Part shown: piece by piece, positions 2,312 through 35,519 of the stretch | Layout of the letters: each line of letters opens with the position of its first letter | Numbering within the stretch: position 1 is the first letter of the stretch | DNA from: Pyrinomonadaceae bacterium | GTDB lineage: Bacteria > Acidobacteriota > Blastocatellia > Pyrinomonadales > Pyrinomonadaceae | Reading direction: 5' to 3' | Assembly: GCA_035491875.1 (NCBI GenBank) | Contig: DATJKB010000744.1 | Span: 919 to 64,918 of the forward strand | Length of the DNA: 64,000 bases | Notes under the pieces: model-generated | The model's input: the letters and a program-made list of their open reading frames with translations, nothing else | Told to the model about the DNA's origin: nothing | Databases searched by the model: none | Translations under genes and position numbers: made by a program

Positions 2312-2324
2312 TCGTCATCGTCTG

Positions 2325-7059: not shown

Positions 7060-7070
7060 AGTAACTCACC

Positions 7071-7953: not shown

Positions 7954-9296
7954 TAGAGTGCCGTCAGCGAGTTGATCACCTCGATCTCATACGCTGCTCC
8001 ACTTGCGTGTTCAGAAGTGAAATCCGCATTGTGCAGCGAGTTAAAGTTAAACTTGTAACCAAACACTCCATTTGCATCTTCCTGCTTCTCGGGATTACCG
8101 AACTTCGCCGCGACATCGACGCGGATCGTCTCATTGTTCACGCCGACATCAATCTCATTCCCAGTTGCGAGTAATCTCACCCACTTCCACGGGTTGGTCT
8201 TCACCGCATTGTACAGCGCGCGGGACTGAGCGTTGTGTGGAGTAGAGAATGAGCAAGTGACATCGGCAGCGATTCGCACGGTTGACTGGAACGAATCGTA
8301 GTCGGTGTTCAATGCCCAGAAGGGTTGCACTTTGTCTCCGATGCGAAAGTCGCCTGCGTAGGCTTGTGCAACTTTGGTTGTGCCGATTGCGCCAAACGTA
8401 TCGTTGACAAAAATATCCACATGCATACGACTGACGGGGGATTGTGCAATTGAGCTAATGTCCGCTCCACCTGCAATCGCAGTCGCAACGACGTAAGTCC
8501 CACCCCCAGTCAATCCAGTTGAGTCCACCGTGATCGCGCTGACATTTGTCCCCTTCAACGTGCCTTGGAAGATGATCGTAATAGGAGTCGTCGAAATCGG
8601 CCCGCCACTAACTACTACGTCTCCCGGAGCGAGATTGGAGAGGGCGATGAGTGCAGCCTGAATCTCAGCCGCGGTCGCGTCGAAGTCGATGGCTGAAGTA
8701 GTCTGAGCGGAGTAAGTGATCGTGAAAGTTCCAGCAGTGACAGTGCCGGACTTAGTAATCGTCTGCTCCTCGTCGGTTTTTGTCGTAAGCGGCTCATTAT
8801 CCACCGGAAAGCGCGCGAACAAATTGCCCGTCATATTCGACGCATCGTTCGTCCACTCCAAGCCGAACGAGGAGAATTTCAACCCTTCCCCAACCTGTAC
8901 CGCATCGCTATCACCTTCCTCGATCGTGAATGACTTAGGCAAAGGATCAGCCCCGGACGACACTGGTGCAAATAACCAGCTCCGCGCATTCGTCGCTCCA
9001 ATCGGAGTCGCAGGCTCACTTGCAGTCTGCAATCCAATCAGCCCACTCAACGGATAGATCACTTGATTGTAATCAGCGATTCCATTCCACGTTCCATTCG
9101 CCCACATCTTTTGCGGGACGGAAGTGGTAGGAATATTGAACCCGCGCGCACGGAACAGTTGAAACTCAGCCTGCGGGTTGAGCGAGATGTTCACGCCGGG
9201 TAGTCGTCGAGTAGCCGCAACTCTTACTCCGTAATCATGCTCAACACCAATTTGCAGGATCGTATCAACTGCCGCTCTAACATCAAGTAGGGCCAT
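7953..9296 (-). CDS. Major tail (tube) protein with inserted display-type domain
   Basis: 447 aa, located between the tail terminator and the chaperone genes. A central ~95-aa insert (TFTITYSAQTTSAIDFDATAAEIQAALIAL...) is shared with two head-proximal proteins. Confidence 0.6.
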   Translation of the reverse strand: MALLDVRAAVDTILQIGVEHDYGVRVAATRRLPGVNISLNPQAEFQLFRARGFNIPTTSVPQKMWANGTWNGIADYNQVIYPLSGLIGLQTASEPATPIGATNARSWLFAPVSSGADPLPKSFTIEEGDSDAVQVGEGLKFSSFGLEWTNDASNMTGNLFARFPVDNEPLTTKTDEEQTITKSGTVTAGTFTITYSAQTTSAIDFDATAAEIQAALIALSNLAPGDVVVSGGPISTTPITIIFQGTLKGTNVSAITVDSTGLTGGGTYVVATAIAGGADISSIAQSPVSRMHVDIFVNDTFGAIGTTKVAQAYAGDFRIGDKVQPFWALNTDYDSFQSTVRIAADVTCSFSTPHNAQSRALYNAVKTNPWKWVRLLATGNEIDVGVNNETIRVDVAAKFGNPEKQEDANGVFGYKFNFNSLHNADFTSEHASGAAYEIEVINSLTAL

Positions 9297-9313
9297 TGGT
9301 TATCGTCTCCAAG

Positions 9314-9814
9314 TTAGACTACGTTTACCGCGTCGTTCAAATTCACTGAATCACCCATCTCCACTACCTTGCGTCCCAGACTGAACACTTCCAGTCGATA
9401 CAACCCGCCGAGGTGGAAATAGAGCGTGCCTGCGACAGTCGGATCGCGCTCCATGAACTGCACGGCAGCTTCTCGTCGCGAACTGACAGCGAACATATCG
9501 CCAGCAGTGGAGATGAAGCTGTCCTTAGTCGTCTTACCCACGATTTCATCGATGCGATCCGCTGCCAGATTGACGAGAGACGACGGACTGCCGCGCGAGA
9601 TAACTTTGACGAGATAGAGCGGACGAGCGAGAATCCGCACCGTGCCCAGTCCTTGAAAGTCGGAATCGGACGCGAGGGAGTAGATAACGAGCGGGTAGAT
9701 CGGTGATTGCGGGAGGGCGTATTTGTAGATTCGCCCGCCGACAACTGACGTAATTTCGCCATCGCTCGCAAGCTTGTCATGTAACCAGTTCTCCGCTGCG
9801 GGTAGTTCATTCAC
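9314..9814 (-). CDS. Tail terminator / tail completion protein (DUF3168-like)
   Basis: 166 aa. The N-terminal pattern ...ITSVVGGRIYKYALPQSPIYPLVIYSL... is typical of DUF3168 proteins. It lies directly upstream of the tail tube gene. GTG start. Confidence 0.5.
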   Translation of the reverse strand: MNELPAAENWLHDKLASDGEITSVVGGRIYKYALPQSPIYPLVIYSLASDSDFQGLGTVRILARPLYLVKVISRGSPSSLVNLAADRIDEIVGKTTKDSFISTAGDMFAVSSRREAAVQFMERDPTVAGTLYFHLGGLYRLEVFSLGRKVVEMGDSVNLNDAVNVV

Positions 9815-9957
9815 TGTCGCCTCGCTCTGACGATGATCAAAATCTCCTCGATATACCTAGCTGGAACATTGACCAGATGGACTACTGGCAAGTTAAGGAA
9901 TCGCGCTACTTCAATCACTTCAATCCACATCAGTTCGTCGTAGACAAGTTCACTCAC
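9811..9957 (-). CDS. Hypothetical 48-aa protein
   Basis: Hand-found ORF that fills the 9815..9953 gap, with GTGA overlaps at both ends. No motif recognised. Confidence 0.25.
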   Translation of the reverse strand: MSELVYDELMWIEVIEVARFLNLPVVHLVNVPARYIEEILIIVRARRQ

Positions 9958-10400
9958 GGTTCCCTTACCTTACGCACAACTCCAGTAGTCGGACCTCGTC
10001 GCTGTGTTACTGAACGCCTTACGCCAATCGTCGCAGTCGGTGGCATTCCACCTTTCAATACTGTCTCAGTCACTTGCTTAGCTTCGGCCTTGTACTGGCG
10101 CTTAGCCGACTCGAACGCAGGGAGAAACCACGGCTGCGCTTCCTGTCTCACTGTGCCGAACTCGACCAGCCCTGAGTAGAATTGAGGCGCAACGACATCC
10201 ACTCGAACATTCGCACTCTCAGTTGCAGGCACTTCCTCCGGTTCTTTGTGCGTCGTGTCAGCCATCAGTCCGGTGTCACGGGGAGCAATCTGCTGGGCTA
10301 CTGCAACGTGTGAGTCCGCTGCACGATGCAAACCCACGCCCATTGCGCGATGCATTCGTTGGCGAATTTCAGGAATTCGACTCTTCAGGGTTGCTGACAT
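9954..10400 (-). CDS. HK97 gp10-family head-tail protein
   Basis: 148 aa. The motif APRDTGLMADT...VVAPQFYSGLVEFGTVRQEAQPWFLPAFE matches the gp10-family signature (..tG.L....Ya..vEfGT....aqPfl.pa). Confidence 0.65.
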   Translation of the reverse strand: MSATLKSRIPEIRQRMHRAMGVGLHRAADSHVAVAQQIAPRDTGLMADTTHKEPEEVPATESANVRVDVVAPQFYSGLVEFGTVRQEAQPWFLPAFESAKRQYKAEAKQVTETVLKGGMPPTATIGVRRSVTQRRGPTTGVVRKVREP

Positions 10401-10770
10401 CTAGCACTCCAGCGACTGTGATCAATGCTTCAAATGATTCATCCAGTCGTTTTAATTGCGTGAATATCAATTCACCTTTTCCGTCCCGTGGGGCAACTGC
10501 TACCCGCTGACTAGGTTTGATGGCTTGTGTCACTGTGGTCACTCGCAAGTAGAGCTTCTGGGTTACTGCGCCTCTGGGAGCGGAACCGACAATTGCTTCC
10601 ATGTCATCGACTGCTTCGACTAAGCCGGGAACTGTTTCGATCGTGTTCCAACTCTCACCAAATCCACCCGAGCCATCGTTCGTCGTTGACAATTCCTGAA
10701 TCGCACATGAATCAGGGAGATATTGCTCAGCTAATACTTTCGCCTGAGCTATCAGAATCGCAGGCGTCAT
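10369..10770 (-). CDS. Head-tail adaptor / head closure protein
   Basis: 133 aa, located between the connector and the gp10-like gene. Call is by size and synteny only. Confidence 0.45.
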   Translation of the reverse strand: MTPAILIAQAKVLAEQYLPDSCAIQELSTTNDGSGGFGESWNTIETVPGLVEAVDDMEAIVGSAPRGAVTQKLYLRVTTVTQAIKPSQRVAVAPRDGKGELIFTQLKRLDESFEALITVAGVLDVSNPEESNS

Positions 10771-11294
10771 GCAATCACCACTGGCAGTCGCAATCCGCGT
10801 AACAGTCGTGCCACGTGAATGGGCAAGCCACTCGTGTCGGTTGTCGCTACTGAAGTCACGGTAGACGACGCCGACTGCTGCTGGTACTTCACCTCGACTG
10901 AGTTTCCGATCTTCAAAGAACTAATTGGCCCGAGCCCGGTCGTGAGCGCGGCAGCCCCTCCCGCTGGTCCTAACGTCAGTAAGTAGAAAGCTAACTCGCA
11001 AGTCGCATTCAGTAACGGCACGGGCATCTCGGTTTCATCGTACAACCCGAGAATCAGCTCATCCTCAATCCCAAACCTCGGCCATTTCAATGCTTGAGTG
11101 AGAGTTGCGGCTCGACCGACGTAATCGTACTCCTCCAGCCACTGCGTCGCAGTCATCAGCGCACGTTCCTGATCGTCTGGAACCGCACTGTCCCACGCAT
11201 TCGGCAGGAGCATGTTTTCAAAGAACAAGTTGGCGTAGGCGAGGGTGGGGTAGGAGTTCGCGTTCACGCCTCCTATTGTTGCGTCCAGTGTCAT
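10767..11294 (-). CDS. Head-tail connector (adaptor, gp15/DnaT-like type)
   Basis: 175 aa. The motif NSYPTLAYANLFF...WDSAVPDDQERALMTATQWLEEYDYVGRA...ALKWPRFG resembles the sY.t..eAd.yf...W...k..AL..At..id...f.G pattern of this adaptor family. Confidence 0.6.
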   Translation of the reverse strand: MTLDATIGGVNANSYPTLAYANLFFENMLLPNAWDSAVPDDQERALMTATQWLEEYDYVGRAATLTQALKWPRFGIEDELILGLYDETEMPVPLLNATCELAFYLLTLGPAGGAAALTTGLGPISSLKIGNSVEVKYQQQSASSTVTSVATTDTSGLPIHVARLLRGLRLPVVIA

Positions 11295-11455
11295 GTCTCG
11301 GTCTTCCGCTTACACGTACATTCACTCTCTCCGAAATCGCAAGTCCTGCAAATCCGATTCTCCTGTCCGGGAGGGCAAGGTCTACCCATGAGGTAGTTGT
11401 ATAGATCCACCTTACCGCCGCAGGTCTTGCAGGGAATGTCCCACTCGTCCGTCAT
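11291..11455 (-). CDS. Small Cys-rich zinc-ribbon protein (54 aa)
   Basis: Hand translation gives MTDEWDIPCKTCGGKVDLYNYLMGRPCPPGQENRICRTCDFGESECTCKRKTET, with two CxxC pairs. ATGA overlaps at both ends fill the gap between two structural genes. Confidence 0.45.
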   Translation of the reverse strand: MTDEWDIPCKTCGGKVDLYNYLMGRPCPPGQENRICRTCDFGESECTCKRKTET

Positions 11456-11967
11456 ATCACCGTCCACACCGGGCGCGAATCATCTCCCGTGTTCTCGTAA
11501 ATGTCGTGGTTCGTTGTGTCAACGCAGCAGTTCCCGGTGATAACCCCTTTGTAGTCACCTTTCACCCCGGCAGTGGAGTTGTTCGACGACGCATCCCCGG
11601 TCAGTCCCGTGCAAGTGTCATTGTCATAAGCGATGTTGAGAGTTGCGTCATTAGCCGCCGATTGGAGAGCAGTCAGTGCAACATTCGCCCCTGTACCCCC
11701 GACTGAGAACATCGCCATGACATCTACATCCGCTGCGAGGGCTGCTCGAACCTTCGTTGCAACTTGAGTCGCGGTATCGTTCAACGCAACTGCAACCGTT
11801 AGCGTCTTCGGCGATCCGGTCATCCCTGCGGCAGTCACAGTGACTGACATGTTCCCGCCGAGCGTAATCGTTCCGACAATCACCGCAGTCTCGACCTGAT
11901 ACACCCCACTCGTAGGCACGCCAGCCTTCGTCAACGCCGCTCCGAAGTTTCTAAATCTCGTGCTCAC
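11452..11967 (-). CDS. Structural protein carrying the shared display-type domain
   Basis: 171 aa, within the head module. It has a diverged copy of the domain seen in the 168-aa and 447-aa proteins (ETAVIVGTITLGGN...VATKVRAAL...). Confidence 0.5.
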   Translation of the reverse strand: MSTRFRNFGAALTKAGVPTSGVYQVETAVIVGTITLGGNMSVTVTAAGMTGSPKTLTVAVALNDTATQVATKVRAALAADVDVMAMFSVGGTGANVALTALQSAANDATLNIAYDNDTCTGLTGDASSNNSTAGVKGDYKGVITGNCCVDTTNHDIYENTGDDSRPVWTVI

Positions 11968-12299
11968 TGAGCCGGAGTCTCCTCAATTGGCTTGGACTTA
12001 GATGGAGCAGCCTGAGGTTTCACTTTAGCTTCCGCACTTGGCTTAGTCTCAGGTTCTACTTTAACTTCCTTCACCTCAGACTTTACTTCAACTGGTGCAT
12101 CGAGAGTTTTGAGCATCTCCGCATATCGCACTGGGATCGTTCCACCTCTCCCAGCCAGCACGAACGCAGCCTCTTTCGGCACTTCCTCGCCTTGTTTAAC
12201 GACGATAATCTCCGTCTGGTCCTCGTTGAGATAGAGATCCTCCTGCGCTACCATTCGGTATGCGCCTCGTGCATCGGTTTTAACAATGGTTAAGCCCAT
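11964..12299 (-). CDS. Hypothetical head-module protein with Lys/Pro/Glu-rich tail
   Basis: 111 aa with a 4-nt overlap to the next gene. It has a low-complexity C-terminus (VKSEVKEVKVEPETKPSAEAKVKPQAAPSKSKP). Confidence 0.45.
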   Translation of the reverse strand: MGLTIVKTDARGAYRMVAQEDLYLNEDQTEIIVVKQGEEVPKEAAFVLAGRGGTIPVRYAEMLKTLDAPVEVKSEVKEVKVEPETKPSAEAKVKPQAAPSKSKPIEETPAQ

Positions 12300-12313
12300 T
12301 CAGTCTCCAATTC

Positions 12314-12820
12314 TCATGTCTGACTGCCCACAACTGTCCACGTAGCCACTGGGCCACTAGTCGCAGTGTTCACGTACACCGTGCCCGCAGAGTCCACGCC
12401 CATTTCCTTCGGCTGCGCATATCGACCACTTGCATTCACTCCCGGCGTAGTAGTGGCGATAGCGAGAGTTGGCGCAGTTCCTGTCAGACTGTTTTTGAAC
12501 ACGGTCATCAGCTCAACGTTCTCTTTCGCACGGATTGCGCCAAAAGTCAGGAGCACTGTGCCGATACCCGCAGTCACCGTTCCCGCACTCGCCACACACC
12601 CATTCGTGCCAAGTGAAGGATGTGCGTCAAGGGCCGCTTGGATATTTGCGAGTAGGGTGTTGTTCGTCGCTGACCACGTGATCGCGGAAGTGTTATTCCC
12701 CTCGAAGCGGAGAATGAAAGTTCCGCCTGTCGGAGTGCCGCCGATGGTGAGCGTTTGCACCTCACTGGTTCCCGCTGTCAGGGTGCCCAGATCGCGTAAC
12801 CTGTTTGGAGTTGATGCCAT
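12314..12820 (-). CDS. Putative head decoration protein carrying the shared display-type domain
   Basis: 168 aa, immediately downstream of the major capsid gene. Motif: EVQTLTIGGTPTGGTFILRFEGNNTSAITWSATNNTLLANIQAAL. Confidence 0.5.
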   Translation of the reverse strand: MASTPNRLRDLGTLTAGTSEVQTLTIGGTPTGGTFILRFEGNNTSAITWSATNNTLLANIQAALDAHPSLGTNGCVASAGTVTAGIGTVLLTFGAIRAKENVELMTVFKNSLTGTAPTLAIATTTPGVNASGRYAQPKEMGVDSAGTVYVNTATSGPVATWTVVGSQT

Positions 12821-12881
12821 TGCTTTGAATCTCCCTATTCAATTGGAGGACCAGCATGAACCAGTCCTCCGCTTAACCCGC

Positions 12882-14177
12882 TTACGACGCCAATCCGGTC
12901 GCTTTACAAAACGCCGACGCCCTGAAAATTTCCAAACTCTCCCGCATCTCAGCAACGATCGTCTTCTTATTCTCGATCAATTGATTGCCGATCGTGCCGA
13001 CGATGATCGTGATGCCTTGACGACGGCTAATATGCGAATAGAGTTGGAAGTCGCCAGTGAGTGCAGTTCCGGCAGTCATCGCAGTTGTCACCACGACCGA
13101 CTTACCGAAGATGCGCTCCGGGCCGGGATCGCTCGGCGCACCCCAGATGTACAGGCCGTCGAGGGTCTTGGCGAGACGAATCGGAGTCCAGTTGTTCGGA
13201 TGGACGACTACCGCAGTCGGCTCAGCGAATCCTGTCGTACGAACCTTTGTCATCGCTTTGTAGATCGTGTCGATATTCGTATCACCTGCCGCAGCTTGTG
13301 TCTGCACACCGGACTTGACAAGGAAACCTGTGATCTGCGGCGGTGTGCCAGTGCCGTTGAGCAGATAGTCTTCCTCTTTTAACTGGAGCATCATGCTCAA
13401 TCGATTATTGATGATGCCCTGAATACCGGGAACGTCGTCGAGTTGCTCGGTTGTTACCGGGATGTAGACGGCGATTTTCTCGACCGGGACAGTCACCTCA
13501 GTCCATTCGAGTTCAGCTTCTGGCTTGGGATCACCTTCAGTTACGGCAGCCGCAGGATTAGCATTAGTCGATGCCGTACCCCATGTTGTCTCTTCCATGT
13601 ACTTGATCGAGGTGAGGGTTGTGGCATCAGTTGGGACAAGATCCGCCACAGTCGGACGACGGAGCGCGAAGTTAACAACTGTCGCTGTACGATCATTCGG
13701 CGGTGCGAATCCCGCGCTGGTCGTCATCAAGGTCTTCAACGCCCGCATGTCCAAATTCTCGCCGATCGTATACTGGTAATGCGGCTGGCCATCGTGGAGT
13801 CCTTTGTGAGATTTATAGACTGGAGAGTCGGTGAAGATCTCGCCGATTGATTTGAATGCGTTCGACGGCTGGAATCCGCCTTTGTCGTCAACAATGAATG
13901 GCACTTGACGATTCACCGTGTTCGCTTTGGCGTGCTTCTCCACTGTCTGTTTGAACACTTCGTCCATCTCGCGCAGGTTCTCCCAACGCTTCGTGGCCTC
14001 GGTGATCTCCTTGTTCTTCATGCGGACGATCTCAACCTCGTCCGCGTCCATGACGATCTGGCCGTCTTTGGTATGAGACTTGAAGTAAGTCTCCAATTCA
14101 GCAATTTTAATGTCCTTGTACGCGCCGAGTTCATTAAGACTCAGGTTTTCAAAAGTATTGACCTGTACGTCAGCCAT
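12882..14177 (-). CDS. Major capsid protein, HK97 fold
   Basis: 431 aa with an N-terminal coiled-coil delta-like region followed by a typical HK97-family body. It is directly downstream of, and overlaps, the prohead protease gene. Confidence 0.9.
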   Translation of the reverse strand: MADVQVNTFENLSLNELGAYKDIKIAELETYFKSHTKDGQIVMDADEVEIVRMKNKEITEATKRWENLREMDEVFKQTVEKHAKANTVNRQVPFIVDDKGGFQPSNAFKSIGEIFTDSPVYKSHKGLHDGQPHYQYTIGENLDMRALKTLMTTSAGFAPPNDRTATVVNFALRRPTVADLVPTDATTLTSIKYMEETTWGTASTNANPAAAVTEGDPKPEAELEWTEVTVPVEKIAVYIPVTTEQLDDVPGIQGIINNRLSMMLQLKEEDYLLNGTGTPPQITGFLVKSGVQTQAAAGDTNIDTIYKAMTKVRTTGFAEPTAVVVHPNNWTPIRLAKTLDGLYIWGAPSDPGPERIFGKSVVVTTAMTAGTALTGDFQLYSHISRRQGITIIVGTIGNQLIENKKTIVAEMRESLEIFRASAFCKATGLAS

Positions 14178-15279
14178 TGTGTGACTCCTTTAACTGTTGG
14201 AATTGGTTGTACTGGAATTCCGCAGCCTGCTGGAGCGCGTTACGCTGATCTCTTGTCGTAACTGCTTCTTTGACCATCTTCTCGAACTCGGAGGCGAGGG
14301 CGATCGGGTGCTCAGCTAATTTCTTCAGTTGAGCAATCAACTCGTTCATTTTATCGACTCTCCGTTGCGAGAAAGCACGGCCATCTTTGATAGCGCGAAA
14401 CTCCTGCTTCCTTGCCAAGCGGCCACTGAGCACGTCGAGTGCGGTAGCGGCTTTGGTGTAGTGGGCAATCAACTCCTCAACAGCGGTCGCCACCTTGAGG
14501 GAGTGGGTATCGAGATCGTCGTCGTACGCAGCCGCGAGAGCCGCGTCGAGAGCTTTAGTGGTAAACGGTGGTACTTTTTCCGACTCTACTTCATCAAGCA
14601 GGGACTTCAGTTCAACATGAGCAATCGACTTCAATGGAACCGCCGCAGTGCGTGGCTCCACAGGCATATGGGTCAAGGAAACTTCGATGATGGGCCACGA
14701 CTTCAGCTCGAAGGCTTTCTTGACTGGAACGCGCTCGACGAGGTGTGGAGCAGATCCAGTGGACCAGCCCAGCTTACCTGCCTTCGCCAGCCCATAGACC
14801 GCCTTTTCGTAGTCGTCCGACTCGTTCAGCTTTGTCTCAAACCAAACTCCAGCATCGTCAACTCGGTAAGTCGCACGACCCAATCGGCGGCGCTTCAGCA
14901 CTGAATCCAAACCGTGATCCCACATCGCCAGTAGTGACTCCCGACCATTCAGTTCGAGGTCGGTAGATTTGGTAAAATAATCGCCTTGCAGATCAGGATC
15001 ATCGGCAGTGGTAAACAGCACGCCATACCCGCCCACACGCCCATCGCCCAACGCCTTCACCGCGCCGCCATAGAAAACCAGCGCATCTGTCGCATTATCC
15101 ATTGGCGGTTTACCCTCGCTTTCAATGTCGAGATAGGAGAAGGATTTACCCTCACTTGCGTATAAGGCGCGGACTTGCGCTTCGGCCATCGAGCGGCTGT
15201 CGTGGCAGTGGACGGTACTACCGTCTGTGATTTTCACAACACAGAAACGACCGTCTCTCTCTTCCACTCGCCACGGCAT
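14170..15279 (-). CDS. Prohead protease (HK97 family) with scaffold-like C-terminal half
   Basis: 369 aa. The N-terminal half contains ...GGYGVLFTTADDPDLQGDYF...LLAMWDHGLD..., which is protease-like. The C-terminal half is helical and charged. It lies between the portal side and the capsid gene. Confidence 0.75.
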   Translation of the reverse strand: MPWRVEERDGRFCVVKITDGSTVHCHDSRSMAEAQVRALYASEGKSFSYLDIESEGKPPMDNATDALVFYGGAVKALGDGRVGGYGVLFTTADDPDLQGDYFTKSTDLELNGRESLLAMWDHGLDSVLKRRRLGRATYRVDDAGVWFETKLNESDDYEKAVYGLAKAGKLGWSTGSAPHLVERVPVKKAFELKSWPIIEVSLTHMPVEPRTAAVPLKSIAHVELKSLLDEVESEKVPPFTTKALDAALAAAYDDDLDTHSLKVATAVEELIAHYTKAATALDVLSGRLARKQEFRAIKDGRAFSQRRVDKMNELIAQLKKLAEHPIALASEFEKMVKEAVTTRDQRNALQQAAEFQYNQFQQLKESHNG

Positions 15280-15292
15280 CTTGATGAGTCCT

Positions 15293-15324
15293 CAAACAAA
15301 GAAACCCGCCACTCACCGGACGGG
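15293..15324 (-). terminator. Intrinsic terminator downstream of homing endonuclease gene
   Basis: On the minus strand: CCCGTC-CGGTGAGT-GGCGGG followed by TTTCTTTGTTTG. It ends 13 nt before the protease start. Confidence 0.6.
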
Positions 15325-15377
15325 CTGTTACGCGATCCGGTAAATAGCGGGCGGGGCTGATTGCTCAGCGTGCGACC
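15293..15377 (-). repeat. Structured ~85-nt element, copy A (hairpin 1 - GATCGCG - terminator hairpin)
   Basis: Aligns with 17434..17515. The blocks cgcgatc, ggcgggg and tgcgacc are shared with identical spacing. Both hairpins are preserved by compensatory changes: GCTGA/TCAGC versus GCTCG/CGAGC, and CCCGCC/GACGGG versus GCCTGTC/GACAGGC. Confidence 0.6.
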
Positions 15378-15397
15378 CTGATTAAATTGTTAAAAAG

Positions 15398-16234
15398 CTA
15401 CTGACGTTTCACCAATCGACAATGCTTGTCCAGTAAACCTATCGCAGTTAGTTCCGCTCGTTGCAGAACAGTTAGATTAACATGCGGATAGCGTTCCGCG
15501 AATCTTTTCAACTTCTTTGCGTTCTCTTCAGTCATCCGTCCTTTGATCTCCACGTAGCGATCTTCGGCAGGCAAGTAGAAGTCTGGTGTGTAGCTCGTGC
15601 CGCCAAGATTGAACCAGCGTGGCTCGTACCGCCAATCAATTCCCTGTTCATCCAACCACTCTGCGTAAGCCACTTCCCAACGCGAGCGCATGAGATATTT
15701 TCCTTTTGGGCCATCGTAGTGCGCTCGATACTTGTTGTAGTCCGGGATACGTCCAACCTGTTTGGCCGACATCGCCGCCACTGAGGCGTTGGTAAATATA
15801 GTTAAGCCTTTGTTCCATGACGACTGTCCTTTTCGGGCCTCTGACAACTTTTGTCGATGTGTCTCGCTGCGTGGTTTTGCGTTTGCGGCTTGCAGATTGG
15901 CTAAGTGCTCAGGGGTAAACTCCTTGCCTTTTTGGCTCGCTGAACTTTTGGCACCAATAGCTTGCCGTTCTTCCTCGGAGCGCTTGGCCCATACTTCCTT
16001 GAGTACCTTTACCCGTAACGCTTTGGTTTCCGGTCTACTAAGACCGTGGGCTATCGCCTTACCGCGTGCTATCGGATCGCGAAAACGAGCTGGCTTTCCC
16101 TTTTTCGTTCTCGTATTGGCAGCCGCAACCGCTTCTCGCCACTTACTACTATTACGACGCCCTTCCGCTAGCTTCTCAGCGTGTTCCCCGGACGTATGAT
16201 TCAAAGATCTGCATCTGGTACATCTTTCTTCCAT
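15398..16234 (-). CDS. Free-standing homing endonuclease: NUMOD3 repeats + PD-(D/E)XK nuclease domain
   Basis: Three to four NUMOD3-like repeats (RSETHRQKLSEARKGQSSWNKG, FTPEHLANLQAANAK, others). The C-terminus reads RWEVAYAEWLDEQGIDWRYEP...YTPDFYLP...YVEIKG, giving E...PD...EIK. The start was moved to ATG 16234 behind AAGGAGGAA; the track starts at GTG 16267. Confidence 0.65.
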   Translation of the reverse strand: MEERCTRCRSLNHTSGEHAEKLAEGRRNSSKWREAVAAANTRTKKGKPARFRDPIARGKAIAHGLSRPETKALRVKVLKEVWAKRSEEERQAIGAKSSASQKGKEFTPEHLANLQAANAKPRSETHRQKLSEARKGQSSWNKGLTIFTNASVAAMSAKQVGRIPDYNKYRAHYDGPKGKYLMRSRWEVAYAEWLDEQGIDWRYEPRWFNLGGTSYTPDFYLPAEDRYVEIKGRMTEENAKKLKRFAERYPHVNLTVLQRAELTAIGLLDKHCRLVKRQ

Positions 16235-16257
16235 CTTGTAATTCCTCCTTGAAATGG

Positions 16258-16287
16258 AGTATACCACAAGATGCTACATTGCCGCAA
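16258..16287 (-). promoter_or_regulatory. Extended -10 promoter for the NUMOD3 endonuclease gene
   Basis: On the minus strand: TTGCGG-N18 (last two nt TG)-TATACT. The core GTGGTATACT is nearly identical to the promoter of the neighbouring HNH gene. Confidence 0.4.
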
Positions 16288-16290
16288 ACA

Positions 16291-16815
16291 CTATCCTGAT
16301 ATCGTATAACTCACGGAAAGTGTATTTGAAGTTGATTTGTTTATTGTGCTGAACGTCACGTGTGACAGGAGCGTGCCTGCCGTCGCACTCGACGTATTAA
16401 ACAACCCCGCCTCACCCAGCGTCCCGGTTGCTTCATCAGTGGCGAAACTCACCTCTGCGCGCCACGACGGAGGATTGCTTGTCAGATTCGTAGTAGTGAA
16501 CGTGCCGATCGTCTTGCGTCCCACTGACGCAGTGATTTCAGATCCGAGCGCAGTGTCGCTTGTCGCTGGCGCAGTAGTCGAAGTTCCAACTGCAATCGCA
16601 TTGATCGAGTTCGTCTGGTTGGAGAATGAACCAATCTTCTCCAGTACCCAGCGGCGTCCAGCGGTCACTACCGTGTTCATGCGCATACGATCGCCCACTG
16701 GCTCACCGTTGAAGGCGTTGTGGAGTTGCATCTCAATACAGCCCCGGAGTAGATACGTATCGCCCATTTCTTCAACGACAGCGGGTTGAATAGTGTCTTT
16801 TTTCTTCCGACTCAT
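16291..16815 (-). CDS. Hypothetical structural-type protein (174 aa)
   Basis: Track ORF with AGGAG 9 nt upstream. Ser/Thr/Gly-rich and predicted beta-rich. It lies between the two endonuclease genes. Confidence 0.5.
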   Translation of the reverse strand: MSRKKKDTIQPAVVEEMGDTYLLRGCIEMQLHNAFNGEPVGDRMRMNTVVTAGRRWVLEKIGSFSNQTNSINAIAVGTSTTAPATSDTALGSEITASVGRKTIGTFTTTNLTSNPPSWRAEVSFATDEATGTLGEAGLFNTSSATAGTLLSHVTFSTINKSTSNTLSVSYTISG

Positions 16816-16832
16816 TCGTTCATCTCCTATCG

Positions 16833-17435
16833 GTGAAGTGGTATAATTCGCTCGTGAGCCCCAACAACGTCGAACAATGGAAGCCCGTTAACGGCTTTGA
16901 TTTGTTGTATGAAGTTTCTAATCATGGCCGGGTTAGAAATATCTCTCCACGTCCTAGAACTTCGATCAATCGAATCCGCAAGCCGCAAATCAACGGACGA
17001 AACGGACGTGGCTATTATTTCGTCGTGCTGAGTAACGGAAGAGAGCACCGTAGACAGGCCCTCATCCATCACTTGGTAGCGGAAGCTTTTATTGGGCCAC
17101 GTCCAGCGGGTTACGAAATCAATCACCTCGACGGTGACAAGCTCAACAATCACGCCGAGAACCTTGAATACTGTACTGTTCTGGAAAATCATCAACATGC
17201 CTCCAGAACTGGACTTGCAGCATTTGGTGACAGAAACGGCTCACGTAAACATCCTGAGCGTCTACCTCGCGGGCAAGATAACTTCATGACCAAGTTGCAA
17301 GATGCGCAGGTTTCTGAAATCAAGCAATTACTCAAGCTCGGTTTACCTCAGGCTGAAATCGGTCGAAAATTCAATATCGCTCAGAGCGTCATCTGCCGGA
17401 TTAACACTGGTCAAATCTGGAAACATATCCAGTAA
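16833..17435 (+). CDS. HNH homing endonuclease (NUMOD4 + HNH_3 type)
   Basis: Motifs: WKPVNGFDLLYEVSNHGRVRNI (NUMOD4-like) and ...HHLVAEAFIGPRP.GYEINHLDGDKLNNHAENLEY (HNH). It is on the opposite strand to all neighbours. The true start may be GTG 16854. Confidence 0.85.
   Translation: MKWYNSLVSPNNVEQWKPVNGFDLLYEVSNHGRVRNISPRPRTSINRIRKPQINGRNGRGYYFVVLSNGREHRRQALIHHLVAEAFIGPRPAGYEINHLDGDKLNNHAENLEYCTVLENHQHASRTGLAAFGDRNGSRKHPERLPRGQDNFMTKLQDAQVSEIKQLLKLGLPQAEIGRKFNIAQSVICRINTGQIWKHIQ
16839..16847 (+). promoter_or_regulatory. Extended -10 promoter TGGTATAAT inside the annotated 5' end of the HNH ORF
   Basis: TGnTATAAT at 16839..16847. The predicted transcription start, about 7 nt downstream, coincides with the in-frame GTG 16854. 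Confidence 0.4.
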
Positions 17436-17464
17436 AAACGAAAAGCCTGTCATCACAGACAGGC
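17434..17464 (-). terminator. Intrinsic terminator after the 67-aa gene
   Basis: On the minus strand: GCCTGTC-TGTGAT-GACAGGC followed by TTTTCGTTTTT. Confidence 0.6.
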
Positions 17465-17515
17465 GACTAGCGCGATCTGCAAAATGACAGGCGGGGCTCG
17501 GTTCGAGCTGCGACC
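17434..17515 (-). repeat. Structured ~85-nt element, copy B
   Basis: Direct repeat of 15293..15377 (see that entry). It spans the gap between the stop codons of the HNH gene and the 67-aa gene. Confidence 0.6.
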
Positions 17516-17718
17516 TAAGAAGTTGTCAATCCAAGCTGTTGAATTACCGCACTATCGATGTACTTCGCGGCCCGGCGCTGGGCCAGTAGAAACTCTCTCA
17601 TCTCCTCGCGCACAATGCGTCTGATTTCGACCTCAAGCGCTTCAGTCAGCCGGATTCTATCACCGATTGGCTCGGTTGCAACAGGTTTTATCAGGCGGGG
17701 GATGGATTGGGTGCTCAT
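17515..17718 (-). CDS. Hypothetical protein (67 aa)
   Basis: Track ORF, co-oriented and 6 nt from the upstream gene. Confidence 0.4.
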   Translation of the reverse strand: MSTQSIPRLIKPVATEPIGDRIRLTEALEVEIRRIVREEMREFLLAQRRAAKYIDSAVIQQLGLTTS

Positions 17719-17724
17719 TCGGAA

Positions 17725-18054
17725 TCAATCTTGCCTGCCGTAAATTGCTTCCATTGTGTGTTTATCGTTTGCGCGAGCCTGTTTTAACATCAACTCAATC
17801 GTGCCATCGGGATCTGGACGTTTAAGGTATTTGGCTTTCCACGTCTCAGTACAAGCACACGGTTCCTTACCGCCGCACCACCACTGATGCTGTTTTAGGC
17901 TAGGAATAATAGTTCCTGCCAAGATTTCTAGATCGTCCGGCTCACATGGACCTTCATGGGCCATAGGCAAATCGCAAAGCAATGAAAATCTCCATCCGTT
18001 TCGTTCGATGCTTGGTAGCCGCTTCCCGCATTTTAGGCTGCTAAATTTGCTCAC
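17725..18054 (-). CDS. Hypothetical Cys-rich protein (109 aa)
   Basis: Track ORF with a 4-nt overlap to the portal stop. Confidence 0.45.
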   Translation of the reverse strand: MSKFSSLKCGKRLPSIERNGWRFSLLCDLPMAHEGPCEPDDLEILAGTIIPSLKQHQWWCGGKEPCACTETWKAKYLKRPDPDGTIELMLKQARANDKHTMEAIYGRQD

Positions 18055-19463
18055 GAAACCAACCTCGCTGTTGAAATTGCCGGACTAGGTTTTACCCCAC
18101 TTGTGCCGTTATCGCTTGCACCGTTTCCATTGTTACTCGCAGTTGCGGTCGTAGTCGCAGGAGCAGCGGCATGAGCTGGCGCAGTGGCATCGCGCGCCTG
18201 CGTTGCCCCACCTCTCGGGACGAAATATACGTCGTCAGCCTCAGTTGCGTCCAGTCCGATCGCTCGACGGTACTCAGCGCGAGTAATTCCGCCGCCTAAA
18301 TAATCCTCGCGAATACGTTTGTGACGAGCAGTTTCATCCTCTTGCAGTGCCTTCACATCGGCAGTGTCGTAGAAGACGTAGTGGTTAGGCTGGTTATCAA
18401 AATCGGGCAGCAGGTGATGCGTGAGAGTCTCAGCAAGGTGCTTCCAAAGAGGGACTAGGTAGTTATTAGTAAACCTTTGCTGGCTCTGGAATACATTATT
18501 ATAAATCGAATGCTCCCCCGCCGAGCCAAACTCCATTACCGTACCCGGAATCCCCTTCACCGCGCAAAATCTCTCTTCAGCGAGATAGCGTTGTAGTCTC
18601 AGGTCTAATTCCTGTGGCGAAAACTGCAACTTCTTCGGCTCAGCGTTGGTGATGATCGGCGGCGTGAATTTCTTATCACCGGAGATCTGCGCCATCAGCA
18701 GCTTCTTGATGTTGTTGATGTCTTCCTGCCCGAGTTCGCCAGCTTTATTGTCGATGGACAGGAAGTAGCGGAACCCAGCATCATTCGCCATCAAATTCGC
18801 ATACCAGTTTGCCGATTCGTTGTCACCGAAGATCTCGCGGAAGATGGCGGGGGTGGACGCGAGTCCATAGCGGGGGTTGGCGGGGTCTAGGCCATTGCGG
18901 AAGTGGATGACATCAGTGACAGGGATCGGCAACCAGTCTGGGCCGCGTTTAACTTCATAGTGGGAGATGAAGGACGATCCGTCTTCGGGGTACCTAGCCC
19001 GGATCGTACCATGCGGCTCATACCAAAGTTCTTTCACCCGCCCTTGATCGTTGCGCTCTTTGCGAATGTAAGCGTTGTCGGTCATCACCCAACTGGTGGA
19101 GACGGCTTTGAGCATCGTCGGGGCATCGTAGAAGTCGTTGGGCCGATACCAGAGTTTGACGAGGGAGTGGTTATCGACGATCACTTCCTCGTTCCCTTGC
19201 TGCTCGCGGACTTGCAGCTCAGCTTCAGAGGCAGAGTTACCCACTGCGGTTACTGCGGCCATCATCAACGACGACATCGTGAGATCGCCGACCGCGGAGG
19301 CGTAGTCGCGCTCAGTTCCTTTGAAGCCGATGAGGAGTTGATTAACCGCTTGATCGAAGTCGGCCCATGTCGGGAAGACGGAGACGAGGTTGGGTGGGGA
19401 AGGCGCAGGGAAGCGGAGTGACTTCCATGCAGCGGACATTCGATCTAGAAAGTTGAGGGCCAT
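18051..19463 (-). CDS. Portal protein (HK97 family)
   Basis: 470 aa with a typical portal-family core (...WYRPNDFYD...ANLMANDAGFRYFLS...). The C-terminal tail is Ala/Thr/Ser-rich. It lies upstream of the protease-capsid block. Confidence 0.9.
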   Translation of the reverse strand: MALNFLDRMSAAWKSLRFPAPSPPNLVSVFPTWADFDQAVNQLLIGFKGTERDYASAVGDLTMSSLMMAAVTAVGNSASEAELQVREQQGNEEVIVDNHSLVKLWYRPNDFYDAPTMLKAVSTSWVMTDNAYIRKERNDQGRVKELWYEPHGTIRARYPEDGSSFISHYEVKRGPDWLPIPVTDVIHFRNGLDPANPRYGLASTPAIFREIFGDNESANWYANLMANDAGFRYFLSIDNKAGELGQEDINNIKKLLMAQISGDKKFTPPIITNAEPKKLQFSPQELDLRLQRYLAEERFCAVKGIPGTVMEFGSAGEHSIYNNVFQSQQRFTNNYLVPLWKHLAETLTHHLLPDFDNQPNHYVFYDTADVKALQEDETARHKRIREDYLGGGITRAEYRRAIGLDATEADDVYFVPRGGATQARDATAPAHAAAPATTTATASNNGNGASDNGTSGVKPSPAISTARLVS

Positions 19464-19466
19464 CGC

Positions 19467-19706
19467 TTAACGGGAATCGGTCGTTACTATCCTAAGAATA
19501 GTCGGCTTATCGTCACTCGCTACAATGATCGTCATGCTGTCGCCGTCGTATAAATCAATCGGGAAGTCATCGTTAGAAACAATGAGCGCAACGGGTGGTC
19601 CAGCTTCTGGACGTAGCTTGTGACGACGGGTAAGTAGCCCACTGCGAATCTCTGACAGCGGACGCTTGGTCTCCAGTAGCTCTTTAGTTAATTTAAGCTC
19701 GGCCAT
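19467..19706 (-). CDS. Hypothetical protein (79 aa)
   Basis: Track ORF, abutting its neighbours. Confidence 0.4.
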   Translation of the reverse strand: MAELKLTKELLETKRPLSEIRSGLLTRRHKLRPEAGPPVALIVSNDDFPIDLYDGDSMTIIVASDDKPTILRIVTTDSR

Positions 19707-19907
19707 TTAGTCCCAGTCGTCAGCTTCTTCAAAAGTAACCTTTAGACCAAGTTTTTGCCACAGCGGATCAAGGGAACCGGAACGAAGGTCCATGTCGTCA
19801 GAGCGAATCTTTGTTAAACTCTCCCCGTCCAGCAGCACGTCATATTCAGGTTCCTCAAGGTACGAACCATCATCTTCAGGTATCGGTCGAAAGATAAGTT
19901 CCCGCAT
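19707..19907 (-). CDS. Hypothetical acidic protein (66 aa)
   Basis: Track ORF 19707..19940. The start was moved to ATG 19907, which overlaps the upstream stop (TGATG). Confidence 0.4.
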   Translation of the reverse strand: MRELIFRPIPEDDGSYLEEPEYDVLLDGESLTKIRSDDMDLRSGSLDPLWQKLGLKVTFEEADDWD

Positions 19908-20176
19908 CACCGCTCCTTCACCAGCACGTAGATCGTCCAATCATCCTCTCTAGCACCCGCTGTCTTGACGTGATTCGTGATTGCGTAGCGCTTGCCTTTC
20001 ACTCCACCCGACAACCAGACGACGGTGTTAGAGGGATCGAGAATCGCGTCCGATTCGACCATGATGCCGCTGTCAGCGGAGAACACACTCGTCTGAATCG
20101 TATCCCCTGCAAGATAAGTAGACCAATCGAAGGGATAGTCGAGCACGGCGTTTGGATCTTGGATGAAGGGGGTCAT
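19907..20176 (-). CDS. Conserved phage protein of unknown function
   Basis: 89 aa. The pattern DPNAVLDYPFDWSTYLAGDTIQTS...VWLSGGVKGKRYAITNHVKTAGAREDDWTIYVLV recurs in many tailed-phage structural regions. Confidence 0.5.
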   Translation of the reverse strand: MTPFIQDPNAVLDYPFDWSTYLAGDTIQTSVFSADSGIMVESDAILDPSNTVVWLSGGVKGKRYAITNHVKTAGAREDDWTIYVLVKER

Positions 20177-35510: not shown

Positions 35511-35519
35511 AATTCCTCC

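What the first reader, a model, noticed from the sequence alone, without database searches (positions are those of the whole stretch)
15293..17515. Two structured ~85-nt direct repeats bracket a 2.1-kb cassette with two self-promoted homing endonuclease genes, splitting portal from protease
Copies at 15293..15377 and 17434..17515 are in the same orientation. They share the blocks cgcgatc, ggcgggg and tgcgacc with identical spacing. Both hairpins differ in sequence but keep their pairing: GCTGA/TCAGC versus GCTCG/CGAGC, and CCCGCC/GACGGG versus GCCTGTC/GACAGGC. The second hairpin plus its U tract is an intrinsic terminator on the minus strand.

Between the copies lie three genes:
- A NUMOD3 + PD-(D/E)XK endonuclease gene.
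- A 174-aa gene.
- An opposite-strand HNH endonuclease gene.

Both endonuclease genes carry nearly identical extended -10 promoters: GTGGTATACT at 16258..16266 and GTGGTATAAT at 16838..16847. Compensatory change implies selection on RNA structure.

Copy A ends only 13 nt before the prohead protease start. Late transcription must therefore read through two terminators, or restart, to reach the protease, capsid and tail genes. That suggests an antitermination or processing role, or an insulator for the selfish genes. The direct repeats may also mark the boundaries of the inserted DNA.
Basis: partly seen in the sequence, partly recalled or inferred. Interest (0 to 1): 0.65.

Follow-up and report, generated by a model that had tools for sequence, protein, structure and literature searches.

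The report
Duplicated terminator-like RNA element beside homing endonucleases
The two repeats are real copies of a conserved, hairpin-forming terminator-like RNA element that sits in front of the capsid-building genes of an uncultured group of soil phages. They flank a resident phage gene rather than a single selfish cassette, and two homing endonuclease genes have since landed next to them.

Summary
Two same-strand copies of a ~95-nt element lie at 15293-15394 and 17435-17529, and a covariance model finds no third copy in the 64 kb.

Across 23 distinct copies from relatives, each copy has four parts:
- a TGAYAAY box followed by GGGTCGCA;
- a 4-5 bp hairpin;
- a long 16-18 bp hairpin rich in G·U pairs, 96-98% paired, with 9-10 compensatory pairs;
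- a U tract 10-25 nt before the next start codon.

Rfam has no match.

The interpretation needs revising.
- The 174-aa gene is resident.
- Copy B is present in every endonuclease-free relative.
- In more distant relatives a single copy sits directly before the protease.
- One relative (L080) has B-174-A with no endonuclease.
- The two endonuclease genes are separate, later insertions.
- The NUMOD3 gene, copy A and their flanks form a near-identical co-conversion tract shared with a diverged phage.

Best reading: an intrinsic-terminator-type gate or insulator before the protease-capsid genes, duplicated around an inserted gene. Function is inferred, not shown. This is a new variant of known kinds and of moderate interest.

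The parts
17435..17529 (-). Copy B of the element. TTGACAAC (17522-17529) also encodes the last codons of the 67-aa gene. It is followed by GGTCGCA (17509-17515), hairpin 1, the CCC linker, long hairpin 2 and the U tract.
   Evidence: Pattern hit. Covariance-model hit at 17435-17515, 78.9 bits. Orthologous copies lie upstream of the 174-aa gene in 14 relatives.
17496..17508 (-). Hairpin 1 of copy B (GCUCG AAC CGAGC).
   Evidence: Folds. In the hand alignment, 4 of its 5 pairs show changes on both sides and 87% of cells are paired.
17445..17492 (-). Long hairpin 2 of copy B: 10 bp, a UU bulge, then 6 bp. The apical loop carries GAUCGCG. The short alternative hairpin GCCUGUC/GACAGGC (17445-17464) lies inside it.
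   Evidence: Minimum-energy fold. Covariation. Terminator scan.
17435..17444 (-). U tract of copy B (UUUUCGUUUU). The stop codon of the reverse-oriented HNH gene overlaps its end.
   Evidence: A U-rich tract follows the hairpin in all 23 distinct copies.
15293..15394 (-). Copy A of the element: a degenerate box TTTAACAAT (15386-15394), GGTCGCA (15371-15377), hairpin 1 (15356-15369), long hairpin 2 (15304-15352) and the U tract (15293-15303). The protease ribosome-binding site and ATG follow 13 nt later.
   Evidence: 77.8 bits. Copies at the same position occur in L031, L055, L056, L057, L060 and L080.
16854..17435 (+). NUMOD4 + HNH homing endonuclease gene in reverse orientation. The ORF list starts it at 16833; the likely start is the GTG at 16854, just after the TGGTATAAT promoter at 16839-16847. 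The whole insert is about 16829-17434.
   Evidence: Pfam HNH_3 at 7e-14 and NUMOD4 at 8e-11. PHROG HNH at 4e-47. The gene is absent from this site in all relatives, where the U tract runs straight into GGAGATGAACGATG. Only distant homologues (44% identity or less) were found in IMG/VR.
16291..16815 (-). Resident 174-aa gene (phrog_5417, function unknown, weak likeness to tail-fibre proteins). It is the gene that the two element copies actually bracket.
   Evidence: 77-92% identical in relatives with and without endonuclease genes. PHROG hit. No solved-structure relative by sequence.
15398..16234 (-). NUMOD3 / endonuclease-I-like free-standing homing endonuclease gene in forward orientation. 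The likely start is the ATG at 16234, after an AAGGAGG ribosome-binding site; the ORF list gives a GTG at 16267. Its promoter-like TGGTATACT is at 16258-16266.
   Evidence: Present or absent at the same site among relatives. 99% identical protein in L031, where the flanking protease is only 76% identical.
15199..16441 (-). Co-conversion tract: the last ~150 nt of the 174-aa gene, the NUMOD3 gene, copy A and the first ~80 nt of the protease gene.
   Evidence: One mismatch in 1243 nt against L031. Flanks show 5-15 differences per 100 nt on the 174-aa gene side and 37-54 per 100 nt on the protease side.
17515..17718 (-). 67-aa gene upstream of copy B. Its last codons (L-T-T-S-stop) are the TTGACAAC...TAG box of the element.
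   Evidence: Homologues end the same way. 36 homologues found.
14170..15279 (-). Prohead protease (S78), followed by the HK97-type major capsid gene at 12882-14177. These are the genes downstream of the element.
   Evidence: Pfam.

Best explanation
The two repeats are paralogous copies of a lineage-specific RNA element of about 95 nt. Read on the gene strand, it consists of:
- a TGAYAAY box;
- GGGUCGCA;
- a small hairpin;
- a long 16-18 bp hairpin rich in G·U pairs, whose 3' arm can also pair with an internal repeat of its own 5' arm;
- a U tract;
- the ribosome-binding site of the next gene, 10-25 nt further on.

By anatomy it is an intrinsic (factor-independent) terminator with extra conserved parts. 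Its ancestral place is the junction between the small genes on the portal side and the prohead protease.

In this lineage the element is duplicated around a resident 174-aa gene, with B upstream and A downstream. Two homing endonuclease genes arrived later and independently. A reverse-oriented HNH gene sits between B and the 174-aa gene. A forward-oriented NUMOD3/endonuclease-I-like gene with its own promoter sits between the 174-aa gene and A. The NUMOD3 gene, copy A and the flanking coding DNA now move between phages as one gene-conversion tract.

Inferred mechanism. The element stops host-RNA-polymerase transcripts before they enter the protease-capsid genes. These transcripts come from the upstream sigma-70-type promoters and from the forward endonuclease's own promoter. 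The element therefore acts as a gate or insulator. The capsid genes have no room for a promoter of their own downstream of the element, so productive transcription must pass the gate, either by partial read-through or by an unidentified antitermination step. The conserved non-stem blocks and hairpin 1 are candidate recognition sites for such a step.

Shown: the anatomy, the covariation, the conservation, the distribution among relatives and the mobility tract. Inferred: termination itself, read-through, and the order of the duplication events.

The confidence given is for the functional reading (terminator-type gate or insulator). The structural and evolutionary description is much firmer, at about 0.85.
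For: Structure:
- All 14 copies first collected fold into the same two hairpins.
- In the hand alignment of 16 copies, 95.4% of cells are paired and 13 pairs have changes on both sides. None of 500 shuffles reaches this, and slid controls give 30-45% paired.
- In the model-made alignment of 23 distinct copies, including two distant relatives, hairpin 2 is 96.1% paired with 10 of 17 pairs compensated, again 0 of 500 shuffles.
- Several stem positions are G·U in 7-16 of the copies, so the pairing works only on the gene strand.

Terminator features:
- A U tract follows every copy.
- The two copies rank first and third in the terminator scan of 1-20000, and are the strongest on the minus strand anywhere in the 40 kb scanned.

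Constraint beyond the stems: the element is 65-67% identical among 8 genomes whose four-fold degenerate sites are only 42-50% identical.

Placement:
- A single copy lies directly between a small gene and the protease in relatives with about 40% protease identity (L033, L034).
- A single B copy is present in the endonuclease-free relatives L030, L032, L078, L079 and L081.
- B-174-A without any endonuclease gene occurs in L080.
- B-174-HEG-A occurs in the window, L031, L055, L056, L057 and L060.

Mobility: there is 1 mismatch in window 16441..15199 against L031, with diverged flanks.

Insulator logic:
- The forward, self-promoted endonuclease gene is followed by a copy in 6 of 6 genomes.
- The reverse-oriented HNH gene here has no copy of its own.
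- Only 13-25 nt separate the U tract from the next ATG.
- No sigma-70 promoter could be fitted inside the element.
Against: - No transcript data exist, so termination is predicted from sequence only.
- A strong terminator in front of the most abundantly needed proteins (protease/scaffold, capsid) is counter-intuitive unless an antitermination system exists. None was identified.
- L080 has copy A without an endonuclease gene, so A is not simply the endonuclease's own terminator.
- The same endonuclease family in another genomic context (L058, L059) has no element after it.
- A plain terminator does not explain the conservation of GGGUCGCA, hairpin 1, the GAUCGCG loop box and the internal repeat of the 5' arm.
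- The hand alignment was fitted to the structure, so its counts lean towards it. The model-made alignment gives lower support for hairpin 1 (67% paired).
Confidence: 0.5

Rival explanations
1. RNA processing or stability element. The long, imperfect hairpin is cut by RNase III or blocks exonucleases. That would separate the portal-side message from the protease-capsid message and give the downstream genes a defined, protected leader and an unobstructed ribosome-binding site. A copy in front of each of the 174-aa gene and the protease would then serve the gene that follows it.
For: - A 16-18 bp stem with a bulge or internal loop and a variable apical loop resembles phage T7 RNase III sites. This rests on my own knowledge, not on a test here.
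- Every copy ends 10-25 nt before a ribosome-binding site and ATG.
- The L080 arrangement, element-174-element-protease, fits one leader per gene.
Against: - The U tract directly after the stem is kept in all 23 distinct copies, including distant relatives. A processing site does not need one.
- Endonuclease-free relatives express the protease with no copy directly in front of it.
Confidence: 0.15
2. Conditional terminator or antitermination site. A phage or host factor binds the conserved single-stranded blocks and hairpin 1, much as lambda nut sites pair a linear box with a small hairpin. It would then let polymerase pass this terminator and later ones at the right time. The two competing 5' arms would be part of the switch.
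For: - The sequence blocks are conserved well above the neutral level.
- Hairpin 1 keeps its pairing with varied sequence.
- The two GRUCGCR boxes change together in L057 copy B, to GGCCGCG and GACCGCG.
- The internal repeat GCCYGUC tracks the 3' arm. The short alternative hairpin is 91% paired with weak covariation.
- The capsid genes depend on passage through the element.
Against: - Both alternative folds keep the 3' arm next to the U tract, so neither is an obvious antiterminator.
- No antiterminator gene was recognised among the reading frames scanned.
- There is no Rfam match.
- The GAUCGCG box is missing in L032 and L053, although the hairpin is kept.
Confidence: 0.15
3. Recombination cassette. 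The main significance of the repeat lies at the DNA level. The element and the TGAYAAC box supply short homology at which genes are inserted, duplicated and lost, as the PeSL promoter-terminator motifs do in T4-like phages. The regulatory role would be the ordinary one of a terminator.
For: - The space between the end of the 67-aa gene and the element is occupied differently in different relatives: nothing, a 65-aa gene, a 70-aa gene, or 100-370 nt of non-coding DNA. Each insert is bracketed by copies of the TGAYAAC...TAR box.
- The 174-aa gene is bracketed by two element copies in L080.
- In other relatives the 174-aa gene sits elsewhere, next to a methyltransferase gene and without the element.
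- PeSLs are described as composite terminator/promoter motifs that mediate indels (PMC4122927, PMC2839356).
Against: - There are only two copies per genome.
- No promoter part was found.
- The A and B copies in this window are 74% alike over the aligned span, too diverged for ongoing homologous exchange.
- This reading does not exclude the functional readings above.
Confidence: 0.2
4. One reading: the two repeats are the boundaries (target duplication or carried ends) of a single 2.1-kb mobile cassette holding both endonuclease genes.
For: The repeats are direct and flank the three genes.
Against: - Copy B is in place in all endonuclease-free relatives.
- The 174-aa gene is resident.
- The HNH gene is unique to this phage, whereas the NUMOD3 gene is shared.
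- L080 has both copies and no endonuclease gene.
Confidence: 0.02
5. A small RNA gene of about 80 nt with its own promoter. GAYAAY would be the -10 box, the start would be at GGG, and hairpin 2 with the U tract would be its terminator.
For: - The GAYAAY box lies 4-8 nt upstream of GGG in all copies.
- The 5' single strand, small hairpin and terminator with U tail resemble the layout of bacterial small RNAs. This rests on my own knowledge.
Against: - No -35 box is found at 16-19 nt in any copy; the best match is 2-3 of 6.
- The box is GACAAC in about half the copies and is degenerate in A copies.
- In several genomes the box is simply the coding end of the 67-aa gene.
Confidence: 0.05

Closest known systems
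Intrinsic (Rho-independent) transcription terminators inside phage late operons, and 'moron'-type promoter-gene-terminator units of lambdoid and HK97-like phages
   Same: - A GC-rich stem directly followed by a U tract, on the gene strand.
- Position between two late structural genes.
- The forward endonuclease gene has a promoter-like site upstream and the element downstream, like a moron.
   Different: - The stem is unusually long (16-18 bp) with a 10-18 nt apical loop.
- It is preceded by a conserved hairpin and conserved sequence boxes.
- It is kept at one locus across relatives down to about 40% protease identity.
- The 174-aa gene it brackets has no promoter of its own.
PeSL composite promoter-terminator motifs of T4-like phages (PMC2839356, PMC4122927)
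   Same: - Short conserved regulatory repeats with a stem-loop lie at the edges of inserted or swapped genes.
- Homing endonuclease genes and small reading frames of unknown function populate the same spots.
   Different: - PeSLs include an early promoter and occur in many dispersed copies in hyperplastic regions of T4-like genomes.
- Here no promoter is detectable, there are two copies, and the setting is the head-gene operon of an HK97-type phage.
Free-standing homing endonuclease genes of phages and their expression controls (T4 mobE, seg genes; review PMC2988022)
   Same: - Presence or absence at one intergenic site.
- Co-conversion of flanking markers.
- Own promoters.
- Terminators placed so that expression of the neighbouring essential gene is preserved.
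   Different: - In T4 mobE the terminator lies inside the endonuclease gene and a promoter downstream restores nrdB expression (PMC2988022).
- Here the endonuclease gene sits just upstream of a paralogous copy of a resident structured element, and that copy travels in the conversion tract.
Lambda nut (boxA + boxB) and HK022 put antitermination RNAs
   Same: A conserved linear box followed by a small hairpin, or two hairpins in tandem, transcribed from the operon they would regulate and close to a terminator.
   Different: - There is no sequence or model match.
- The loop of hairpin 1 is not conserved.
- The second hairpin is itself terminator-like.
- The location is a late structural operon.
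- This resemblance is recalled from memory and is a lead only.

Membership tests
Intrinsic (Rho-independent) terminator | Stable GC-rich hairpin immediately followed by a U-rich tract, on the transcribed strand | tested here: met
   Folding energy is -31.6 (B) and -47.1 (A) kcal/mol for the stretches folded, with z-scores of -2.4 and -5.1. A U tract follows all 23 distinct copies.
Intrinsic (Rho-independent) terminator | Stem maintained by compensatory change in relatives | tested here: met
   96-98% of cells are paired, 9-10 pairs have changes on both sides, and 0 of 500 shuffles reach this.
Intrinsic (Rho-independent) terminator | Transcripts end at the U tract | not testable with these tools
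   The phage is uncultured and no RNA data were available.
PeSL mobile regulatory cassette | Contains an early (sigma-70) promoter joined to the stem-loop | tested here: not met
   No consistent -35/-10 pair fits with either TTGAYA as the -35 box (by reading the aligned copies) or GAYAAY as the -10 box.
PeSL mobile regulatory cassette | Many dispersed copies per genome | tested here: not met
   Two copies in 64 kb; the next hit has E 0.22.
PeSL mobile regulatory cassette | Copies coincide with insertion, deletion or replacement end points | tested here: met
   The 174-aa gene is bracketed by copies. Variable inserts are bracketed by the TGAYAAC box.
Free-standing homing endonuclease gene (NUMOD3 gene, 15398-16234) | Recognisable nuclease and DNA-binding modules | tested here: inconclusive
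   Pfam Phage_endo_I scores 21.8 bits against a cut-off of 29.1, and NUMOD3 scores 19.6 against 20.4. PHROG endonuclease/resolvase families reach E 2e-16.
Free-standing homing endonuclease gene (NUMOD3 gene, 15398-16234) | Present or absent at the same site in related genomes, with a co-conversion tract | tested here: met
Free-standing homing endonuclease gene (NUMOD3 gene, 15398-16234) | Site-specific cleavage of the empty site | not testable with these tools
   Needs the purified protein and empty-site DNA of the L080 and L030 types.
Free-standing homing endonuclease gene (HNH gene, 16854-17435) | HNH catalytic motif with NUMOD4 or helix-turn-helix DNA-binding modules, and insertion absent from relatives | tested here: met
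   Pfam hits above the cut-offs. PHROG at 4e-47. The site is empty in all relatives.
Any Rfam family | Match to a curated covariance model | tested here: not met
   Only two tRNAs reach the gathering score. Nothing better than E 1.3 was found in 15200-17700.
Lambda-type nut site | boxA consensus followed by a boxB hairpin with a conserved loop | tested here: not met
   Hairpin 1 loops differ (AAC, GCAA, UAAU, UAACU, GUU). A boxA-like run appears only in front of copy A of the window and L031, by eye.

The most novel reading that the evidence does not exclude
The element is a new class of regulated terminator RNA. It would gate host RNA polymerase into the head-assembly genes and be opened by a factor that reads GGGUCGCA, hairpin 1 and the loop box. 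It would also act as a portable 'leader cassette' whose duplication lets new genes, and then homing endonuclease genes, settle inside an essential operon without upsetting its control.
Probability: 0.15. Interest if true: 0.65.

Novelty: new variant of a known kind. Interest (0 to 1): 0.4.

Why it matters
- The element is a clean, covariation-supported and previously uncatalogued RNA element from an uncultured soil phage lineage. The closest cultured phage has only 37% capsid protein identity.
- It shows how selfish endonuclease genes and an acquired structural-like gene sit inside an essential head-gene operon next to duplicated copies of a resident control element.
- If the element is a regulated gate, it would point to late-gene control by termination and antitermination in a phage group where this is unknown.
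- If it is only a terminator, the case is a tidy but ordinary example of operon insulation and homing with co-conversion.

Tried and rejected
- **Promoter inside the element.** With TTGAYA as the -35 box, no -10 box lies 16-19 nt downstream. With GAYAAY as the -10 box, no -35 box is found; the best match is 2-3 of 6. Rejected.
- **T7/T3-type polymerase promoter** (CACTA-GGG likeness). The spacing varies by indels, and no single-subunit RNA polymerase was found among the large reading frames. Rejected.
- **tRNA-like reading of GGTTCGAGC in copy B.** The hairpin loop is 3-4 nt, and ARAGORN and Rfam find nothing. Rejected.
- **Dispersed repeat family.** The covariance model with filters off finds only two copies. 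Rejected.
- **Copy A as an intrinsic part of the endonuclease cassette.** Contradicted by L080, which has A without the endonuclease gene, and by L058 and L059, which have the endonuclease gene without A.
- **Prophage copies, to name a host.** The pattern scan of reference genomes gave four hits, about the number I estimated by chance. Model scores were 22 bits or less for three of them, and the fourth gave no match at E ≤ 1. No host was inferred.
- **First IMG/VR pattern scan.** Only 4 of the 29 stretches hit, on two contigs related to this phage, are real copies. The other 25 are chance matches in GC-rich DNA.
- **rrn boxA likeness of GCTTTTTAACAA before copy A.** Seen by eye in the window and L031 only, and not in other A copies. 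Treated as chance.
- **A 3-bp helix GGG/CCC enclosing hairpin 1.** Inconsistent across copies. Not pursued.
- **The repeat finder** missed the pair because the copies differ by indels.

Full report
**What is in the window**

All head genes in this part of the window are on the minus strand. In the direction of transcription the order is:
- portal, 18051-19463;
- a 109-aa gene;
- a 67-aa gene, 17515-17718;
- copy B;
- an HNH gene on the opposite strand;
- a 174-aa gene, 16291-16815;
- a NUMOD3/endonuclease-I-like gene, 15398-16234 (ORF list: to 16267);
- copy A;
- the S78 prohead protease, 14170-15279;
- the HK97-type capsid gene, 12882-14177.

The composite pattern GGTCGCA-N-CCCGCC-N-GATCGCG occurs at exactly the two reported places and never in shuffles. 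The two copies are 74% alike over the aligned span and differ by small indels. That is why the repeat finder missed them.

**Structure**

The conserved CCCGCC block is the foot of the 5' arm.

An internal repeat of the 5' arm (GCCYGUC) lies at the top of the long stem and can pair with the same 3' arm.

**Relatives**

Searches with proteins and DNA patterns in IMG/VR, JGI metagenomes and Logan/ENA assemblies gave a set of related uncultured phage contigs; one sample name (GD_farmland) points to soil. The nearest cultured phage has only 37% capsid protein identity.

I collected 23 distinct copies of the element. All 14 first tested fold the same way.

- **Hand alignment of 16 copies.** 95.4% of stem cells are standard pairs and 13 pairs have changes on both sides. 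None of 500 shuffles reaches this, and sliding the partners drops pairing to 30-45%.
- **Model-made alignment of 23 distinct copies.** The long hairpin is 96.1% paired, with 10 of 17 pairs compensated.
- **Hairpin 1.** Support is good in the hand alignment (87% paired, 4 of 5 pairs compensated). It is weaker in the model-made one (67%) because its 5' arm shifts register. It is degenerate in two copies.
- **Short alternative hairpin.** It is 91% paired with only weak covariation.
- **Strand.** Several stem positions are G·U in 7-16 of the copies, so the structure exists only in RNA, or single-stranded DNA, of the gene strand.
- **Sequence constraint.** The element is 65-67% identical among eight genomes whose four-fold degenerate sites are 42-50% identical. 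Sequence is therefore constrained as well as pairing.
- **Known families.** Rfam has nothing.
- **Copy number.** The model finds only two copies in the window and none in reference bacterial genomes beyond chance-level hits.

**Where the copies sit in relatives**

This is the decisive evidence for interpretation.

1. In relatives with about 40% protease identity (L033, L034), a single recognisable copy lies directly between a 57-aa gene and the protease. The 57-aa gene ends in TTGATAAC..TAG. These relatives have neither the 174-aa gene at this site nor an endonuclease gene.
2. In close relatives without endonuclease genes (L030, L032, L078, L079, L081), one copy of B type lies upstream of the 174-aa gene. 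That gene then runs into the protease within 6-35 nt. L049 shows the same 174-to-protease junction, but its upstream side is cut off.
3. L080 has B, the 174-aa gene, A and the protease, with no endonuclease gene.
4. The window, L031, L055, L056, L057 and L060 have B, the 174-aa gene, the NUMOD3 gene, A and the protease.

The 174-aa gene is therefore resident, 77-92% identical across these genomes. The two copies bracket that gene, not an endonuclease cassette.

In other relatives the 174-aa gene lies elsewhere, next to a methyltransferase gene and without the element. The same endonuclease family can follow it there too, again without the element. The endonuclease thus tracks the 3' flank of the 174-aa gene.

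**The endonuclease genes**

*NUMOD3 gene.* Its protein is 99% identical between the window and L031, while the protease next to it is only 76% identical. At the DNA level there is one mismatch between 16441 and 15199. Divergence then rises on both sides. This is the classic co-conversion signature of homing, and copy A lies inside the tract.

*HNH gene.* It was found only in this phage. In every relative the U tract of copy B runs straight into the GGAGATGAACGATG start region of the 174-aa gene. Here about 600 nt carrying the reverse-oriented HNH gene and its promoter lie between them.

*Promoters.* Both genes are preceded by the only two TGNTATAMT sites in the window. That number of matches is itself no more than chance would give.

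**How it probably works**

By anatomy the element is an intrinsic terminator. The two copies are the strongest terminator-like sites on the minus strand in the 40 kb scanned, which covers the structural-gene region.

Only 13-25 nt separate the U tract from the next start codon, and no promoter fits inside the element. Transcripts for the protease and capsid genes must therefore cross it.

My preferred reading is a gate or insulator that keeps ordinary host-polymerase transcripts out of the head-assembly genes. These include transcripts from the forward endonuclease's own promoter. Productive expression would depend on partial read-through or on an unidentified antitermination step.

This fits two observations. 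The forward, self-promoted endonuclease gene is always followed by a copy (6 of 6). The reverse-oriented HNH gene has none of its own.

It does not explain why hairpin 1, GGGUCGCA, the loop box GAUCGCG and the internal arm repeat are conserved. Those features leave room for a regulated terminator or a processing site. All of this is inference. No RNA data exist for this uncultured phage.

**Evolution**

The simplest history has three steps:
1. one element in front of the protease;
2. duplication of the element when the 174-aa gene settled there, or later gain or loss of the downstream copy;
3. invasion of the site between the 174-aa gene and copy A by the NUMOD3 gene.

L081's junction keeps both the left-flank and right-flank sequences that surround HEG+A elsewhere. 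The direction of these events cannot be fixed with the present sample.

The short TGAYAAC..TAR box is the coding end of the 67-aa gene. It is repeated after each gene inserted between that gene and the element (65-aa and 70-aa genes, non-coding inserts). This spot is therefore a hot spot for insertions.

**Comparison with known systems**

The element works like an intrinsic terminator, and the locus resembles a moron or a PeSL-bracketed cassette. It fails two defining PeSL features: it has no promoter part and only two copies. It matches no Rfam family.

I file it as a new variant of known kinds, of moderate interest.

Noticed in passing
window 32440-34839 (-): The large terminase gene (799 aa) carries Hint/intein splicing domain matches, which suggests an intein inside the terminase.
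   Followed up: partly
L030 1924-4605; L055 1-2317; L056 91-2670: The portal genes of three relatives are 860-893 aa instead of 470 aa and show intein and LAGLIDADG hits. The window's portal lacks this insert. In L030 the insert is about 1.2 kb and maps to window position ~18507.
   Followed up: partly
L056 3060-3200; L080 3200-3470; also L055 3170-3320, L078 3200-3300, L079 3520-3680: 100-370 nt of non-coding DNA lie between the 67-aa gene (or, in L079, the 68-aa gene after it) and copy B in some relatives. L056 and L080 share a conserved stretch ending in a tRNA-like T-arm (GTAGGTTCGAGTCCTAC). ARAGORN finds no tRNA in L055-L057, and Rfam finds no family in L055, L056, L078-L080. This may be another structured RNA or a relic.
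   Followed up: partly
L030 5138-5335; L031 4161-4358; L057 927-1139; L060 2513-2725: Different small genes (65 aa or 70 aa) occupy the space between the 67-aa gene and copy B in different relatives. Each is bracketed by a repeat of the TGAYAAC..TAR box, which marks an insertion hot spot.
   Followed up: partly
L044 2085-2351: A reverse-oriented gene sits between the 174-aa gene and the protease start site. Its C-terminus resembles that of the window's HNH endonuclease (…GRTWKHLD* against …GQIWKHIQ*). This is a third kind of endonuclease insertion at this junction.
   Followed up: partly
L046 ~940-1409; L058 2989-3849; L059 1523-2383: NUMOD3-type endonuclease genes with their own promoter-like sites also follow the 174-aa homologue in more distant relatives, where the downstream genes differ (51-aa and 68-aa genes, then a methyltransferase). 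The 3' flank of the 174-aa gene is therefore the likely homing target.
   Followed up: partly
window 16239-16272 and 35510-35543: The promoter and ribosome-binding region of the NUMOD3 gene is 79% identical over 34 nt to the region at the head of the leftward structural operon (TTGACT-18-TGcGATGAT, AAGGAGG, ATG at 35509). The endonuclease gene may be expressed with that promoter class.
   Followed up: partly
window 16839-16856 (+): The HNH gene's -10 box (TATAAT, 16842-16847) is only about 6 nt from the first in-frame start codon (GTG at 16854). Its mRNA may therefore be leaderless, or nearly so.
   Followed up: no
window 29959-30031 (-) and 39832-39920 (+): Two tRNA genes reach the Rfam gathering score.
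   Followed up: no
window 56336-59011 (+): A family A DNA polymerase reading frame has an N-terminal uracil-DNA glycosylase superfamily domain (891 aa).
   Followed up: no
window 15378-15399 (-): The run GCTTTTTAACAA just upstream of copy A resembles the ribosomal RNA operon boxA sequence as I recall it. It is present only in the window and L031 copies, so it is probably chance.
   Followed up: partly
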